From: Betaproteobacteria bacterium
GTDB taxonomy: Bacteria; Pseudomonadota; Gammaproteobacteria; Burkholderiales; Casimicrobiaceae
Direction: 5' to 3'
Length of the DNA: 64,000 nt
NCBI GenBank assembly: GCA_013298145.1
Contig: JAAFJO010000009.1
Location: 13,783 to 77,782 of the forward strand
Shown: positions 28,773-32,806 of the stretch, piece by piece
How positions within the stretch are numbered: position 1 is the first letter of the stretch
How the letters are laid out: every line of letters starts with the position of its first letter
Position numbers and translations under genes: made by a program
The notes under the pieces: generated by a model
The model's input: only the letters and a program-made list of their open reading frames with translations
What the model was told of the DNA's origin: nothing
Databases searched by the model: none

Positions 28773-28860
28773 ACAACGCTAGGGGTGCTGGTCCCATCGG
28801 ATCGGCTGAGATAACACCCTAGAACTTGATCAAGGTAATACTTGCGCAGGGAAGCGTTGT
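28773..28860 (+). promoter_or_regulatory. TPP (thiamine pyrophosphate) riboswitch, THI element
   Basis: 8-bp P1 helix ACAACGCT/AGCGTTGT enclosing the conserved blocks UAGGGGUGC, GCUGAGA, ACCC, GAACUUGAUCAAGGUAAUACUUGCG and CAGGGAAG. It lies about 70 nt upstream of the TonB-dependent receptor start. Confidence 0.9.
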
Positions 28861-28928
28861 GGATTTACACGCGATCCCGGCGGGTGAGCGTTCGTCCACG
28901 TACTGCCCTGCCATCGAAAGGACACTCG

Positions 28929-31151
28929 ATGGCTTTTTCAAAGCTCACTTCACGTAGCGGCTCCTCCCGCTCATCCAACCCCACCTTTGCTCGCAGCGCG
29001 TCATTGACGCTCGTCGCGCTCGCCTGCGCGCAAGCGTTCGCGCAAGATGCACCGCAACGCGTCGAGCCGATTACCGTCAGTGCGCGCTCGGCCCCCGTAC
29101 TTGAAGCGGAATCCGCCGATGTCGGCGGCTTCGACGCGCCGATCGCTAAAACGCCGCAAAGCGTTTCAGTGATCGGCAACGATTTGCTCAACGCGCTTGG
29201 CATTCGCACGCTCTCCTCCGCGCTCAAGCTCGACGCATCGCTCGCCGACAACTACAACGCAGGCGGCTATATCGAGAGCCTTTCGGTGCGCGGCTTCGTG
29301 CTCGATCAAACCAACAACTTCAAACGCAACGGCCTCGCAAACTCAAACTACGCGCCTATCGCCTTTGAAAATAAAGAGCGAATCGAAATATTGAAGGGCG
29401 CAGCGGGGCTGCAAGCAGGCGTCGCCGCGCCGGGCGGGCTTATCAATGTCGTAACGAAGCAGCCGCTGCGCGACGCGTTTACGGTGGTCTCGCTGGATGC
29501 GGATCGCTGGTCCAACTCGAAAGTGCATGTCGATAGCAACACGCGGCTAGGTAGCGCAGGGCTTCGCGTCAACGTCGCCGCGGAGCGGATTGATAATCAT
29601 TGGGCAGGTGCACGCGGTGATCGCGCCCTCGCGAGCGCAGCGTTTGCGCTGCCGCTTTCGCGCGATACGTCCTTGTTGATCGATCTCGAGCATCATCGCC
29701 AAAGCCAGCCCTCAGTGCCCGGCTTCGGATTACTCGACCGAGATGGCGATGGCGTGGCGGAGAGCTTGCCGGAAGCGCGGAAACTCTGGCGTACCAATCT
29801 GAATAATCAGCCCTGGTCGCTACCCGTGGTTACACGCACGACTCAAGCCACTGCAAAGCTGTCGCATCGGATCAATGCCGATTGGAATGTCCAAGTCGGC
29901 GTTCATCTGTTTCGCACCCAGATTGATGATCGTATTGCCTTCCCCGATGGCTGCAGTAGCGCCGCCAACTATGTCTATCCGGGGCTCTGCGGGAATGGCG
30001 ATGTCGACATTTACGATTTCCGCAATGATGGCGAACGTCGTCAATTGACCAGTTTCGAAGCAGCGCTGCAGGGCAAGTTCAACGCACTCTCCACCGAGCA
30101 TCGCGTACGTGTAGCGCTCAGCGGTCGCGACGGCGCGGTGCGCCAGCCGACGCTGGGTGCCTACAACTTTGCGGGTACAGTGAACGCGTTTTCACCGAGC
30201 GTCCTCGCCGCGAATCCCACGCTAGAGTCAGTCAATACGCTGTCGGACGAACGCGCGCTTGAGCTGAGCGCCTCGCTCCGTTCATTGTGGAGCGCGCGCT
30301 TGGAAAGTTTCGTGGGCGTGCGCCTCGCTCAAGTGGATCGGTCGAGCGTGAATACCGATGGCTCGCGCGCGGTTTCACTCTCCCAAACTCACGCCACGCC
30401 GTTCATCGCTGGCGTCTACAACTTCAATGCAACTCAGTCGGCGTACGCCCAATTTTCTCAGGGCGTAGAGACCGAATCCGTACCAAATCGACCTAGCCGC
30501 TTTATCAACGCTGGTGCTGCACTTCCGGGGGCAAAGAGCGATCAGTTAGAGCTCGGTTGGAAATGGCAAGCCAATCCGCGAACGCTCGTGACCGGTGCAG
30601 TATTTCAGATCGAAAAGCCGTATTCCGATGATCGCATCGAACCCAGCGATGCACGCGGTCGCCCCTTGCGAATTGCGGCGGCAAAGCTCGCGCGGCATCG
30701 CGGCGTGGAGCTTAGTCTCACCGGGCGCGCGACCGATGCGCTCTCACTGCAGGCCAGCGCCACGTATTTGGACGCACGCTACACCCGCGCGCTTAACAGC
30801 GAGCTAATCGATCAACGCGTCACCAACGTGCCGCGATTCGCGCTATCGCTCTTCGCCGATTACAAAGTCGCCGCAGTACGCGGGCTCTCCATCAACTCGC
30901 TGCTCTATGTTCAATCGGGAAAAACGGTCGATTCGTTTGGGCAGGTGTCGTTGCCCCGCGCATTGCAGATCGATCTCGGTGCGAGCTATCAGGCGCGGCT
31001 CGCGAACCGCCTCACGACTGCGCGGCTCACAGTCGAAAACATTGCGGACGGCGCCTACTGGCGTGAAGCACCCACCACAAGCTGGGGCGGCCAGTATCTC
31101 TTCGCGAGCGCGCCGCGTAACGTGAAGTTCAGCGTGAGCACGGAGTTCTAG
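28929..31151 (+). CDS. TonB-dependent outer-membrane receptor (thiamine/vitamin-type, riboswitch-controlled)
   Basis: The start is refined to ATG 28929 (AAGGA 6 nt upstream). The signal peptide ends in AQAFAQD. It has plug-domain motifs (TPQSVSVIGNDLL, RIEILKGAAG) and a C-terminal beta-barrel ending in ...STEF. Confidence 0.9.
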   Translation: MAFSKLTSRSGSSRSSNPTFARSASLTLVALACAQAFAQDAPQRVEPITVSARSAPVLEAESADVGGFDAPIAKTPQSVSVIGNDLLNALGIRTLSSALKLDASLADNYNAGGYIESLSVRGFVLDQTNNFKRNGLANSNYAPIAFENKERIEILKGAAGLQAGVAAPGGLINVVTKQPLRDAFTVVSLDADRWSNSKVHVDSNTRLGSAGLRVNVAAERIDNHWAGARGDRALASAAFALPLSRDTSLLIDLEHHRQSQPSVPGFGLLDRDGDGVAESLPEARKLWRTNLNNQPWSLPVVTRTTQATAKLSHRINADWNVQVGVHLFRTQIDDRIAFPDGCSSAANYVYPGLCGNGDVDIYDFRNDGERRQLTSFEAALQGKFNALSTEHRVRVALSGRDGAVRQPTLGAYNFAGTVNAFSPSVLAANPTLESVNTLSDERALELSASLRSLWSARLESFVGVRLAQVDRSSVNTDGSRAVSLSQTHATPFIAGVYNFNATQSAYAQFSQGVETESVPNRPSRFINAGAALPGAKSDQLELGWKWQANPRTLVTGAVFQIEKPYSDDRIEPSDARGRPLRIAAAKLARHRGVELSLTGRATDALSLQASATYLDARYTRALNSELIDQRVTNVPRFALSLFADYKVAAVRGLSINSLLYVQSGKTVDSFGQVSLPRALQIDLGASYQARLANRLTTARLTVENIADGAYWREAPTTSWGGQYLFASAPRNVKFSVSTEF

Positions 31152-31158
31152 ACGCATC

Positions 31159-31758
31159 ATGCTTGCCACTGCATTTCATTTCTTTGGCGCTGCGGTATCT
31201 TGGCTAGAGGTGGTCGCCTTCGTATTGGCGCTGGCCATGGTGATCTGCAGCGCTTACGAGAAGCCGCTCACCTGGCCGCTCGCCATCGTCTCGTCGGCGC
31301 TTTACGTGTGGCTCTTCTACGTGAGCAAACTCTACGGCGAAACGATCGTGAACGTGTTTTTCGTGCTTTCCGGGCTCTATGGTTGGTTCCAGTGGCTATT
31401 CGGTCACCGTGATCGCTCGCGCGAGCCGCTTCGGGTGGCTCGCTTGCCGTCGCGCGGCTTAGCGCTCACCGTTGCCGCGTGGGCGATCGGTTGGCTTGCT
31501 TTCGGCGCATTTCTAGCCCGGTTTACTGATAGCGATGTCCCGTGGGCAGATGCGTTTGTCACTGCGGGTAGCTTCGTTGGTACCGTATTACTGGCTAAAA
31601 AATACATCGAAAACTGGCCGGTTTGGATCGTGGTGAACGCGGCAAGCGTCGCGCTCTTCATCTACAAATCCCTCTGGCTCACCACCCTGCTCTACGCGAT
31701 CCTTTTTGCATTTAGTTTTTGGGGTTGGCGCATTTGGCGACGAGCGCTTGCCGCATGA
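31159..31758 (+). CDS. PnuC-family vitamin transporter (PnuT-like, predicted thiamine uptake)
   Basis: 199 aa with about 7 TM helices. PnuC signatures are present (WLEVVAFVLALAMVICSAYEKPLTWPLAIVSSALYVWLFYVSKLYGE...YGWFQW). It is in the same operon as the TPP riboswitch. Confidence 0.85.
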   Translation: MLATAFHFFGAAVSWLEVVAFVLALAMVICSAYEKPLTWPLAIVSSALYVWLFYVSKLYGETIVNVFFVLSGLYGWFQWLFGHRDRSREPLRVARLPSRGLALTVAAWAIGWLAFGAFLARFTDSDVPWADAFVTAGSFVGTVLLAKKYIENWPVWIVVNAASVALFIYKSLWLTTLLYAILFAFSFWGWRIWRRALAA

Positions 31759-32294
31759 GCGCGCCAAAACTGATTGCGATTGTTGGTGCCGAAAGCACGG
31801 GGAAAACCTCGCTCGCCCGCGCGCTCGCGCAGGAATTCCACTCACCGTGGGTTCCTGAATATTTGCGTCGCTTCTGCGATGAGCGCGGACGCACGCCCTA
31901 CGTTCACGAACAAGCGTTGATTCTTGAAACACAACGCATCCATGAAGACGTGGCGCTGCAAGAAGCTGCGGCCACTTATGCGCCGCTCGTGATTTGTGAC
32001 ACCGCACCGCTCATGACCGCGGTTTACAGTGAATTCATCTTCGGCGACGTGGCACTCTATCGGCGTGCAATTGAGTGCCATCATCGCTATGCGCACACGC
32101 TCTTACTTTGCAACGATCTTCTGTGGCTTGAGGACGGTTTCCAGCGTGATGGACCGCAGGTTCGCGCGCGTATTTTCGATCTAATCGAAGCGAACCTTGA
32201 GAGCGCAGGTCTGTCGTACAGCGTCATCGATGGCGATGGCCATACGCGTACACTCAACGCCATGCACGTGATCGATAACCTCCTCAAGCGCTAG
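31755..32294 (+). CDS. NadR C-terminal-domain-like P-loop kinase (AAA/ribosylnicotinamide-kinase fold)
   Basis: The start is refined to ATG 31755, which overlaps the pnuC-family stop (ATGA). Walker A is IVGAESTGKTSLARALA, followed by ...PWVPEYLRRFCDE...LICDTAPL, as in the NadR RNK domain. Confidence 0.7.
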   Translation: MSAPKLIAIVGAESTGKTSLARALAQEFHSPWVPEYLRRFCDERGRTPYVHEQALILETQRIHEDVALQEAAATYAPLVICDTAPLMTAVYSEFIFGDVALYRRAIECHHRYAHTLLLCNDLLWLEDGFQRDGPQVRARIFDLIEANLESAGLSYSVIDGDGHTRTLNAMHVIDNLLKR

Positions 32295-32305
32295 CGCAGG
32301 TCTTC

Positions 32306-32806
32306 ATGGATTTGCTCTTCTGTTCAGCCTTGCAATGGCTCTCGCTGCCGCGCCATGGTTTGAGCACGATTTTCGTGGTTGCGTTGGTCTCTGCGACGCT
32401 ACTGCCGATGGGCTCTGAGCCGGCGGTGTTTGGCTTCGTAAAGCTCAATCCAGAGATGTTCTGGGCGGCAGTCGCGGTTGCCACGGTCGGTAACGCGATT
32501 GGTGGCGCGATCAACTGGTGGATCGGCTATGGCGCGAAGCGCGCCTACGAACATTACAAACATTCAACCGTACAAGCGCGCGCGCTCGCGTGGCTCGAAC
32601 GACTCGGCCCAAAGGCCTGCTTTTTTGCGTTTCTCCCAGTGATCGGTGACCCGCTTACCAGCATTGCGGGGTGGCTCAAGCTTCCCTTCTGGCCCTGCTT
32701 TTTTTGGGGTGCACTCGGAAAACTTTGCCGCTACGTCGTGATGACTGCCGCACTCATCTGGGTATTTCCGGGGCAGTTTGATCCGGCATCGTTCTGCGCG
32801 CCGTAG
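32306..32806 (+). CDS. YqaA-family (DedA/SNARE-associated superfamily) membrane protein
   Basis: 166 aa, starting 11 nt after the kinase stop. ...VVALVSATLLPMGSEPAVFGFVKLNPEMFWAAVAVATVGNAIGGAINWWIGYG... is typical of YqaA. Confidence 0.72.
   Translation: MDLLFCSALQWLSLPRHGLSTIFVVALVSATLLPMGSEPAVFGFVKLNPEMFWAAVAVATVGNAIGGAINWWIGYGAKRAYEHYKHSTVQARALAWLERLGPKACFFAFLPVIGDPLTSIAGWLKLPFWPCFFWGALGKLCRYVVMTAALIWVFPGQFDPASFCAP

What the first reader, a model, noticed from the sequence alone, without database searches (positions are those of the whole stretch)
28773..32806. TPP-riboswitch-controlled TonB receptor-PnuT operon with a NadR-like kinase and a YqaA membrane protein
A textbook THI element precedes a TonB-dependent receptor and a PnuC-family carrier. 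An ATGA-overlapping P-loop kinase follows, and a YqaA-family protein starts 11 nt later. The outer-membrane receptor plus PnuT plus a trapping kinase logic is known for thiamine salvage, for example the Bacteroides OMthi-PnuT-TPK arrangement. Here, though, the kinase is not a thiamine pyrophosphokinase fold. A DedA-superfamily protein is also attached. The transported species is not fixed by the sequence: it could be thiamine, a phosphate ester or a precursor.
Basis: partly seen in the sequence, partly recalled or inferred. Interest (0 to 1): 0.62.

Follow-up and report, generated by a model that had tools for sequence, protein, structure and literature searches.

The report
Thiamine uptake operon, NadR-like kinase
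A vitamin-B1-sensing RNA switch controls an outer-membrane receptor, a passive inner-membrane vitamin channel and a small kinase annotated for vitamin-B3 salvage; this bacterium cannot make B1 and has no known thiamine kinase, so this kinase is very probably an unrecognised type of thiamine kinase.

Summary
A TPP riboswitch (65.8 bits, the only one in the genome) precedes a TonB-dependent receptor, a PnuC-family carrier, an ATGA-overlapping 179-aa AAA_28 kinase with a NadR-RNK fold, and a VTT/YqaA protein that starts 11 nt later.

Genome context narrows the cargo to thiamine itself. This 99%-complete genome has no ThiC, ThiD, ThiE, ThiG, ThiM, ThiK, TPK or ThiB, but it keeps ThiL. The same pattern holds in 9 other genomes from 5 families.

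The kinase belongs to a supported clade. Of its 19 members in the order sample, 16 lie next to a TPP-riboswitch-controlled receptor, against 0 of 22 outside the clade. Eight further contigs carry the same module. One clade member sits beside a TPP-riboswitch thiBPQ transporter with no Pnu gene at all.

Best reading (0.78): thiamine enters through the receptor and PnuT, is phosphorylated to ThMP by this kinase, and ThiL makes TPP. I found no paper assigning this function, and databases call the protein a nicotinamide riboside kinase. There is no biochemistry yet.

The YqaA gene is conserved only in this lineage and is probably an accessory or a passenger. Overall this is a new variant of the known receptor-PnuT-kinase scheme.

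The parts
28771..28869 (+). TPP riboswitch aptamer (THI element); the only one in the genome
   Evidence: RF00059, 65.8 bits against a gathering score of 54.3, full-length model. Single hit in the own genome. The core is invariant in 10 related loci.
28906..28933 (+). Putative expression platform. CCCUG is followed by an 8-bp hairpin, GCCAUCGA (28910-28917) / UCGAUGGC (26-33), with the Shine-Dalgarno AAGGA in the loop and the receptor AUG (28929-28931) in the 3' arm. CCCUGC (28906-28911) is complementary to GCAGGG (28846-28851) in the aptamer.
   Evidence: The hairpin was found. It is invariant in 10 loci while the linker before it is not conserved, and the only change (A to G) keeps a G-U pair. 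The U-run after it occurs only in this genome, so it is not a conserved terminator. Switching is inferred: simple folding did not show it.
28929..31151 (+). TonB-dependent outer-membrane receptor (740 aa), candidate thiamine receptor
   Evidence: Plug plus barrel, TIGR01783. Orthologues (28-57% identity, aligned full length) follow a TPP riboswitch in every related locus examined.
31159..31758 (+). PnuC-family facilitator (199 aa), PnuT by context; the only Pnu gene in the genome
   Evidence: PF04973, 177 bits. Single copy. 12 of the 15 TPP-linked Pnu proteins group (93/93) apart from Pnu proteins that precede fused NadR; three long-branch ones are unplaced. Homologue of PnuC 4qtn.
31755..32294 (+). 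Stand-alone AAA_28 P-loop kinase with a NadR-RNK fold (179 aa), candidate thiamine kinase (thiamine to ThMP). Its start overlaps the pnu stop (ATGA).
   Evidence: PF13521, 110.8 bits; TIGR01526 scores only 73 bits against a cut-off of 341, on the RNK part alone. AF2 and Foldseek results. Thiamine-linked clade, support 95/92. Clade-specific residues L37, R46, P48, E52, Q53 and A89. Pathway-hole argument.
32306..32806 (+). YqaA-like VTT/DedA-superfamily membrane protein (166 aa); lineage-specific fourth gene of unknown role
   Evidence: PF09335, 39.8 bits. 76-81% identical orthologues lie downstream of the kinase in two congeneric genomes. A VTT-domain gene follows the kinase in 6 of 7 further contigs although their flanks differ. 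It is absent after the kinase in other families.

Best explanation
This is a thiamine (vitamin B1) salvage operon of an obligate thiamine auxotroph.

Regulation. When TPP is scarce, the riboswitch leaves the receptor's start codon accessible. When TPP is abundant, a conserved hairpin that holds the Shine-Dalgarno in its loop and the AUG in its stem closes, and translation of the first gene falls. Expression of the tightly packed downstream genes probably falls with it, through coupling or polarity.

Uptake and trapping. The TonB-dependent receptor brings thiamine across the outer membrane. The Pnu-family facilitator (PnuT) lets it diffuse across the inner membrane. The translationally coupled NadR-RNK-like P-loop kinase transfers the gamma-phosphate of ATP to the hydroxyethyl group of thiamine. 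This gives thiamine monophosphate, which the carrier cannot re-export. ThiL, encoded elsewhere in the genome, then makes TPP. The kinase is therefore a functional analogue of E. coli ThiK, built on a different fold.

YqaA-like protein. It is co-transcribed in this lineage, but it is not part of the general module.

Shown here: the parts, their conservation, the gene-content pattern, and the clade-level association with thiamine elements. Inferred: the kinase's substrate and product, the cargo of the receptor and the carrier, and the riboswitch mechanism.
For: 1. Parts and junctions are verified.

2. Pathway hole. The own genome (99.3% complete) has no thiC, thiD, thiE, thiG, thiH, thiM or thiK (tblastn), no TPK and no ThiB. 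It has an intact thiL. It has one Pnu gene, one AAA_28 gene and one TPP riboswitch. The same pattern recurs in 10 of 10 genomes from 5 GTDB families: ThiC-, ThiE-, TPK-, no credible ThiK homologue (one 22.6-bit partial hit in G549), ThiL+, and a single TPP riboswitch at the receptor. Without ThiE, ThiL has a substrate only if thiamine is phosphorylated.

3. Clade association. In a maximum-likelihood tree of 42 AAA_28/RNK sequences, a clade of 19 (UFboot 95, SH-aLRT 92) holds all 16 kinases that lie within 3.3 kb of a TPP riboswitch plus receptor. None of the 22 outside it is linked. The linkage survives three different gene orders. The Pnu partners largely mirror this tree: 12 of the 15 TPP-linked ones cluster at 93/93.

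4. Eight of 8 further contigs (kinases 51-60% identical, plus a 93%-identical one) carry riboswitch-receptor-Pnu-kinase.

5. Independent of Pnu. A clade member with all the signature residues (P0144, 40% identity) sits directly upstream of a TPP riboswitch (63.8 bits) and a ThiB-family ABC transporter (TIGR01254, 304 bits). There is no Pnu gene in the fully annotated 10.6 kb around it.

6. Enrichment. The clade kinase is present in 10 of 40 ThiC-negative genomes of the order sample, against 9 of 261 ThiC-positive ones (odds ratio 9.3, p = 2e-5, not corrected for phylogeny).

7. The fold is that of a gamma-phosphate-transferring P-loop kinase. Walker A, Walker B and the lid arginine are conserved. 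Six clade-specific invariant residues lie at positions 37-53 and 89.

8. PnuT of Shewanella woodyi is a thiamine facilitator that does not bind TMP or TPP, and its uptake depends on trapping by phosphorylation (PMC5749112).
Against: - No biochemical or genetic data exist for any member of this clade, so the substrate is inferred only.
- The nearest characterised homologues are nicotinamide riboside kinases.
- The own genome also lacks nadA and nadC, so nicotinamide riboside salvage would be useful to it.
- In 12 of the 16 linked genomes the riboswitch precedes only the receptor and not pnu-kinase.
- Three clade members, in one family of thiamine prototrophs, have no thiamine context.
- Simple thermodynamic folding did not reproduce a ligand-dependent switch of the start-codon hairpin.
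- Absence of ThiD, ThiG, ThiM and ThiB was tested by tblastn in the own genome only.
Confidence: 0.78

Rival explanations
1. The database annotation is right. The pair is PnuC plus a nicotinamide riboside kinase for NAD salvage. It merely sits next to, or here downstream of, a thiamine-regulated receptor.
For: The best homologues with known function are NadR RNK domains. JGI names relatives 'nicotinamide riboside kinase'. The own genome lacks nadA and nadC. In two of the three gene orders the pair is not downstream of the riboswitch.
Against: The clade is separate from fused NadR proteins and from a second stand-alone clade. Some genomes carry both a thiamine-linked pair and a separate pnuC-nadR-type pair, for example G463. 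Linkage to TPP elements is 16 of 19 inside the clade and 0 of 22 outside it. One clade member is attached to thiBPQ without any Pnu gene. The own genome has PncB, NadD and a weak NadE-like hit for niacin salvage. This reading leaves the ThiL-only auxotrophs with no route to ThMP.
Confidence: 0.08
2. The kinase is bispecific. It phosphorylates both thiamine and nicotinamide riboside, and the single Pnu carrier passes both. This would serve an organism auxotrophic for both vitamins.
For: The own genome lacks de novo routes to both thiamine and NAD and has only one Pnu and one AAA_28 gene. Both substrates are primary alcohols attached to a cationic N-heterocycle (established chemistry).
Against: Control is by a TPP riboswitch alone. 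PncB is present. The clade has specific invariant residues at positions 37-53 and 89, which suggests a defined specificity. NAD auxotrophy was checked in the own genome only.
Confidence: 0.09
3. The operon imports a thiamine precursor or a phosphate ester (HMP, thiazole, TMP or TPP), and the kinase acts on that compound.
For: The sequence alone does not fix the ligand of the receptor or the carrier. TonB-dependent receptors could admit phosphorylated vitamers into the periplasm.
Against: There is no ThiD, ThiM, ThiG or ThiE to use precursors. Characterised PnuT does not bind TMP or TPP (PMC5749112). A kinase is pointless for TPP. ThiL is retained in 10 of 10 auxotrophs.
Confidence: 0.04

Closest known systems
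Bacteroides thetaiotaomicron OMthi (BT2390) - PnuT (BT2396) - TPK/Tnr3 (BT2397) thiamine uptake system under TPP riboswitches (PMC5613172; Rodionov et al. 2002, cited from memory)
   Same: The logic matches: a TPP riboswitch, a TonB-dependent outer-membrane receptor, a Pnu-family facilitator and a cytoplasmic kinase that traps the vitamin.
   Different: There the trap is a thiamine pyrophosphokinase (PF04263) that makes TPP in one step. Here PF04263 is absent from the genome. The trap is a P-loop kinase with a NadR-RNK fold that should make ThMP, so ThiL is needed as a second step. A VTT/YqaA gene is appended.
E. coli thiamine salvage: ThiBPQ uptake, ThiK (thiamine kinase, APH fold) and ThiL
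   Same: The two-step chemistry proposed here is the same: thiamine to ThMP to TPP, with ThiL as the second enzyme. One clade member even sits beside a TPP-riboswitch thiBPQ transporter.
   Different: There is no credible ThiK homologue in these genomes and no ThiB in the own genome. The proposed first kinase has an unrelated fold.
PnuC-NadR nicotinamide riboside salvage (Haemophilus influenzae and Salmonella; structures 4qtn, 1lw7, 8x7f, 6gyf)
   Same: The carrier family (PF04973) and the kinase fold are homologous, and the principle is the same: facilitated diffusion plus phosphorylation. Gene adjacency and translational coupling are also shared.
   Different: The kinase lacks the NMN adenylyltransferase and HTH domains and fails the NadR equivalog models (73 against 341 bits, 39 against 201 bits). 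It belongs to a separate clade and is associated with TPP riboswitches rather than NAD regulation.
PnuT of Shewanella woodyi (PMC5749112)
   Same: It is a Pnu-family thiamine facilitator whose uptake relies on metabolic trapping.
   Different: Direct orthology with the window's carrier was not tested, because no sequence was in hand. That paper speaks only of 'various thiamine kinases'.

Membership tests
TPP riboswitch (Rfam RF00059) | Score at or above the curated gathering threshold of the covariance model, over the full model | tested here: met
   65.8 bits against 54.3, model positions 1-105. Homologous elements in 10 related loci score 63-66 bits.
TPP riboswitch (Rfam RF00059) | Binds TPP and represses the downstream gene | not testable with these tools
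   A conserved SD/AUG hairpin and a complementary segment suggest translational control. In-silico switching was not reproduced.
TonB-dependent receptor | N-terminal Plug domain plus a 22-strand barrel domain | tested here: met
   PF07715, 52.6 bits; PF00593, 95.4 bits; TIGR01783, 254.5 bits against a cut-off of 223.5.
Pnu transporter family (PF04973); PnuT subtype | Family membership by profile | tested here: met
   PF04973, 177 bits; TIGR01528, 85 bits against a cut-off of 42; homology to 4qtn.
Pnu transporter family (PF04973); PnuT subtype | Thiamine, rather than nicotinamide riboside, as substrate | not testable with these tools
   Context only: TPP riboswitch control, and 12 of 15 TPP-linked Pnu proteins cluster apart from those preceding fused NadR.
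NadR (bifunctional or trifunctional NMN adenylyltransferase / RNK) | NMN adenylyltransferase domain plus RNK domain; score above the equivalog cut-off | tested here: not met
   Only the RNK part matches: TIGR01526 positions 163-321, 73 bits against 341; NF005988, 39 bits against 201. The protein is 179 aa and has no N-terminal domain.
AAA_28 / NadR-RNK-like P-loop kinase fold | Pfam PF13521 above cut-off; Walker A, Walker B and a lid arginine; fold match to RNK domains | tested here: met
   110.8 bits against 27. G11/G16/K17, D82 and R131 are conserved. Foldseek 8x7f TMq 0.86, rmsd 2.3.
Thiamine pyrophosphokinase (TPK/ThiN/Tnr3, PF04263) | TPK catalytic domain | tested here: not met
   No PF04263 match in the own genome or in 30 related genomes. 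The kinase fold is unrelated.
ThiK thiamine kinase (APH-like fold) | Homology to E. coli ThiK | tested here: not met
   No tblastn hit in the own genome. None in 18 of 19 clade genomes, and one 22.6-bit partial hit in G549.
Thiamine kinase activity (EC 2.7.1.89), by function | ATP-dependent formation of ThMP from thiamine | not testable with these tools
   Supported indirectly by the pathway hole and by the clade's association with TPP elements.
DedA superfamily / YqaA (VTT domain PF09335) | VTT domain above the Pfam cut-off | tested here: met
   39.8 bits against 33.9. Only a weak match to UptA (21 bits against 250), so it is not that equivalog.

The most novel reading that the evidence does not exclude
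The stand-alone AAA_28 clade marked by PWVPEYLRxFC...RxP...EQ...CDTxPLxTAxYS...DGxQR is a third, structurally unrelated class of bacterial thiamine kinase, after ThiK and TPK. On this reading it arose from the nicotinamide-riboside kinase domain of NadR and switched substrate together with its Pnu partner (PnuC to PnuT). It is the missing first step of thiamine salvage in ThiL-only auxotrophs that are common in mats, biofilms and fresh water. It is currently mis-annotated as nicotinamide riboside kinase in public databases. A bolder extension is that the conserved YqaA/VTT protein takes part in vitamer transport.
Probability: 0.7. Interest if true: 0.72.

Novelty: new variant of a known kind. 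Interest (0 to 1): 0.62.

Why it matters
Genome-based predictions of vitamin B1 auxotrophy and cross-feeding rely on a fixed list of salvage enzymes: ThiK, ThiM and ThiN/TPK (PMC6593275). Genomes like this one have ThiL only and no known thiamine kinase, so under that list they have no route from imported thiamine to TPP.

Assigning the NadR-like kinase clade to thiamine would have three consequences:
- It would close that hole.
- It would correct a widespread 'nicotinamide riboside kinase' annotation. The broad family has 3085 clusters at 50% identity, of which 35 match this protein at E <= 1e-30.
- It would give a clear case of a transporter and its trapping kinase changing substrate together.

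The claim can be tested directly with one enzyme assay and one complementation experiment.

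Tried and rejected
- Terminator reading of the hairpin. The hairpin at 28910-28933 was first flagged as terminator-like because of its U-run. I rejected this because the U-run is absent from 9 of 10 homologous loci while the hairpin is invariant. A translational platform is more likely.
- Folding the leader. Constrained and unconstrained ViennaRNA folding did not show ligand-dependent opening of the hairpin. The result is inconclusive.
- YqaA as a core component. Rejected, because the gene is absent from the module in other families. 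It is nevertheless conserved within this lineage despite changing flanks.
- Precursor (HMP or thiazole) uptake. Rejected on gene content.
- ThMP import by ThiBPQ as the source of ThiL's substrate. There is no ThiB homologue in the own genome.
- Public genome contig scan. A scan with the single protein found only a 93%-identical MAG. The class-level sample was too sparse, with 8 of 301 genomes hit. The order-level sample was used instead.
- The three clade members without thiamine context (G579, G408, G149). Their neighbours are housekeeping genes or have no Pfam match, which is uninformative.
- Transcript evidence. Only DNA runs from mat, biofilm and freshwater metagenomes hold the locus.
- Literature. 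Searches for any link between AAA_28, NadR or RNK kinases and thiamine or PnuT found nothing. Rodionov et al. 2002 and the Jaehme and Slotboom 2015 reviews are not in the library and could not be checked.
- NR-binding residues. Those of solved NadR and PnuC structures could not be mapped, because no coordinates were in hand.

Full report
**1. What is there**

Rfam's TPP model (RF00059) matches window 28771-28869 on the + strand at 65.8 bits. The gathering score is 54.3 and the match covers the full model. A whole-genome search shows this is the only TPP riboswitch in the 4.13-Mb, 99.3%-complete assembly.

Four genes follow on the same strand:
- A TonB-dependent receptor, with Plug and barrel domains and TIGR01783 above its cut-off. 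Its real start is ATG 28929, behind an AAGGA Shine-Dalgarno. The mechanical ORF start, TTG 28842, lies inside the aptamer.
- A PnuC-family carrier at 31159-31758 (PF04973, 177 bits).
- A 179-aa AAA_28 protein at 31755-32294 (PF13521, 110.8 bits).
- A 166-aa VTT/DedA-type protein at 32306-32806 (PF09335, 39.8 bits).

**2. The kinase fold**

The kinase matches only the C-terminal ribosylnicotinamide-kinase (RNK) part of the NadR models, far below their cut-offs: 73 against 341 bits, and 39 against 201 bits. An AlphaFold2 model built on 61 homologues is confident (pLDDT 93.6). Its best structural matches are NadR RNK domains (8x7f TMq 0.86; 1lw7; 6gyf), followed by thymidylate kinases. It is therefore a gamma-phosphate-transferring P-loop kinase. 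It is neither a TPK nor a ThiK/APH fold.

**3. Genome context fixes the pathway**

tblastn with E. coli proteins finds no thiC, thiD, thiE, thiG, thiH, thiM or thiK in the own genome, but it finds an intact thiL. No TPK domain is present and no ThiB homologue. The organism cannot make thiamine and cannot use HMP or thiazole. Its only recognisable thiamine enzyme, ThiL, needs thiamine monophosphate. The genome has one Pnu gene and one AAA_28 gene. The riboswitch-controlled kinase is the only visible candidate for the step from thiamine to ThMP.

**4. Survey of relatives**

In 301 genomes sampled from the same GTDB order, 37 carry a homologue of the kinase. In most of the 37 a Pnu-family gene lies directly upstream.

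I placed the positions of all TPP riboswitches in these genomes against a maximum-likelihood tree of 42 kinase sequences (alignment, tree). One clade of 19 (UFboot 95, SH-aLRT 92) contains all 16 kinases that lie within about 3.3 kb of a TPP riboswitch. None of the 22 sequences outside it is linked. Those 22 comprise fused NadR-type proteins, a second stand-alone clade, and E. coli NadR.

The linkage survives three gene orders:
- riboswitch-receptor-pnu-kinase (this genus and one other family);
- pnu-kinase-riboswitch-receptor;
- pnu-kinase convergent with riboswitch-receptor.

In the loci where the neighbouring gene was checked, the riboswitch directly precedes an orthologous receptor (28-57% identity). 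The Pnu tree largely mirrors the kinase tree: 12 of the 15 TPP-linked carriers cluster at 93/93, and three on long branches are unplaced.

Eight further contigs were retrieved through protein hits. Seven have kinases 51-60% identical to this one and one is 93% identical. All eight carry riboswitch-receptor-Pnu-kinase.

**5. The pathway hole is general**

Ten genomes of the clade, from five families, lack ThiC, ThiE, TPK and a credible ThiK homologue (one 22.6-bit partial hit in G549). All ten keep ThiL above its curated cut-off, and each has exactly one TPP riboswitch, the one at the receptor.

Across the order sample, the clade kinase occurs in 10 of 40 ThiC-negative genomes and in 9 of 261 ThiC-positive ones. 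The Fisher odds ratio is 9.3 with p = 2e-5, not corrected for phylogeny.

**6. Evidence independent of Pnu**

A more distant clade member, P0144, is 40% identical and carries all the clade's signature residues. It lies directly upstream of a TPP riboswitch (63.8 bits) followed by a ThiB-family binding protein (TIGR01254, 304 bits against a cut-off of 93), a fused permease and an ATPase. There is no Pnu gene in the fully annotated 10.6 kb around it. The kinase therefore follows thiamine import, not the Pnu carrier as such. That is hard to reconcile with a nicotinamide riboside kinase.

**7. Specificity**

Catalytic positions are shared by all clades: Walker A (G11, G16, K17), E35 and R38, Walker B (D82), and D127 and R131. 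Six positions are invariant in the thiamine-linked clade and different elsewhere: L37, R46, P48, E52, Q53 and A89. They lie in the segment after strand 2 and after Walker B. In NMP-kinase-like folds this is where the phosphate acceptor binds (general knowledge of the fold; not measured on the model here).

Chemically the shift is small. Nicotinamide riboside and thiamine both present a primary alcohol attached to a cationic N-heterocycle.

**8. Riboswitch mechanism (inferred)**

Between aptamer and start codon the linker is not conserved. The element CCCUGCC(A/G)UCGA - loop with the Shine-Dalgarno - UCGAUGGC is invariant in ten loci, and the single A-to-G change keeps a G-U pair. The AUG lies in the 3' arm. 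CCCUGC is complementary to GCAGGG in the aptamer's 3' part.

I propose that this aptamer segment holds the hairpin partly open when TPP is absent, and that TPP binding releases the hairpin to close over the AUG. The U-run after the hairpin is unique to this genome, so a terminator is unlikely. Simple folding did not reproduce the switch. This step remains a hypothesis.

**9. The YqaA-like gene**

Orthologues (76-81% identity) follow the kinase in two congeneric genomes. A VTT-domain gene follows the kinase in six of seven further contigs, although their flanking genes differ. It is absent after the kinase in four other lineages. It is a lineage-specific fourth gene. I found no evidence for its role and treat it as an accessory or a passenger.

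**10. Rivals**

The nicotinamide riboside reading has some support. The closest homologues of known function are NR kinases, and the own genome lacks nadA and nadC. However, the genome has PncB, NadD and a weak NadE-like hit. This reading also fails to explain the clade-specific TPP linkage, the thiBPQ case and the ThiL-only genotype. A bispecific enzyme cannot be excluded.

**11. Comparison with the known**

The logic is that of the Bacteroides OMthi-PnuT-TPK system (PMC5613172). The proposed chemistry is that of E. coli ThiK plus ThiL. The protein families are those of PnuC-NadR.

The new element is a NadR-RNK-fold kinase in the thiamine role. Full-text searches found no paper making this link. 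A curated B-vitamin reconstruction lists only ThiK, ThiM and ThiN as B1 salvage enzymes (PMC6593275). The PnuT paper speaks only of 'various thiamine kinases' (PMC5749112). Two key older sources were not in the library.

Earlier AI notes of this scan report the same module in other phyla. They agree with this reading but are not independent evidence.

**12. Verdict**

The operon is real and well supported. It is a new variant of a known kind of system. The candidate thiamine kinase can be tested with a single assay.

Noticed in passing
own genome (G000), whole: The genome also lacks nadA and nadC but has pncB, nadD and a weak nadE-like hit. The organism therefore looks like a niacin auxotroph as well as a thiamine auxotroph. 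It comes from microbial-mat and biofilm metagenomes.
   Followed up: partly
L063-L065, L067-L075 (G460, G474, G503, G365, G305, G332, G558, G430, G478, G516, G562, G597): A second, well-supported clade of stand-alone AAA_28 kinases exists. Most directly follow a Pnu-family gene; the G332/G478/G562 group has none. None is near a TPP riboswitch. They carry different motifs (DPL-RENP; W in place of Y91). Their substrate is unknown.
   Followed up: partly
L047, L049, L052, L055, L059, L061 and L050, L054, L056-L058, L060: In 12 genomes the TPP riboswitch controls only the receptor. The pnu-kinase pair lies just upstream of the riboswitch or convergent to it, so the carrier and kinase appear to escape riboswitch control there.
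   Followed up: partly
L100 5001-7841; L101: A clade kinase overlaps the stop of serS (ATGA-type junction). It sits immediately upstream of a TPP riboswitch and a thiBPQ-like ABC transporter, with no Pnu gene.
   Followed up: yes
L098 (E. coli K-12 71351-75480): In E. coli the DedA-family gene yabI lies next to thiBPQ, convergent with thiQ. This could be coincidence, or a hint that DedA/VTT proteins recur beside thiamine transporters, as the YqaA-like gene does here.
   Followed up: no
L090, L095, L096, L097: A gene for a TPP-dependent enzyme (PF02776/PF00205/PF02775) lies 1-3.5 kb downstream of the module in four related contigs.
   Followed up: no
window 32868-33987 (-): Tandem DUF3617 paralogues lie convergent to the operon. 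The same pair is present in the related contig L094, and one copy in L093.
   Followed up: no
window 28650-28676: A GC-rich inverted repeat (gcagcacgc...gcgtgctgc) lies just after the sodium:solute symporter gene (27177-28637). It probably ends that transcript and so separates it from the riboswitch operon. An SSF gene flanks the module in several relatives, in either orientation.
   Followed up: no
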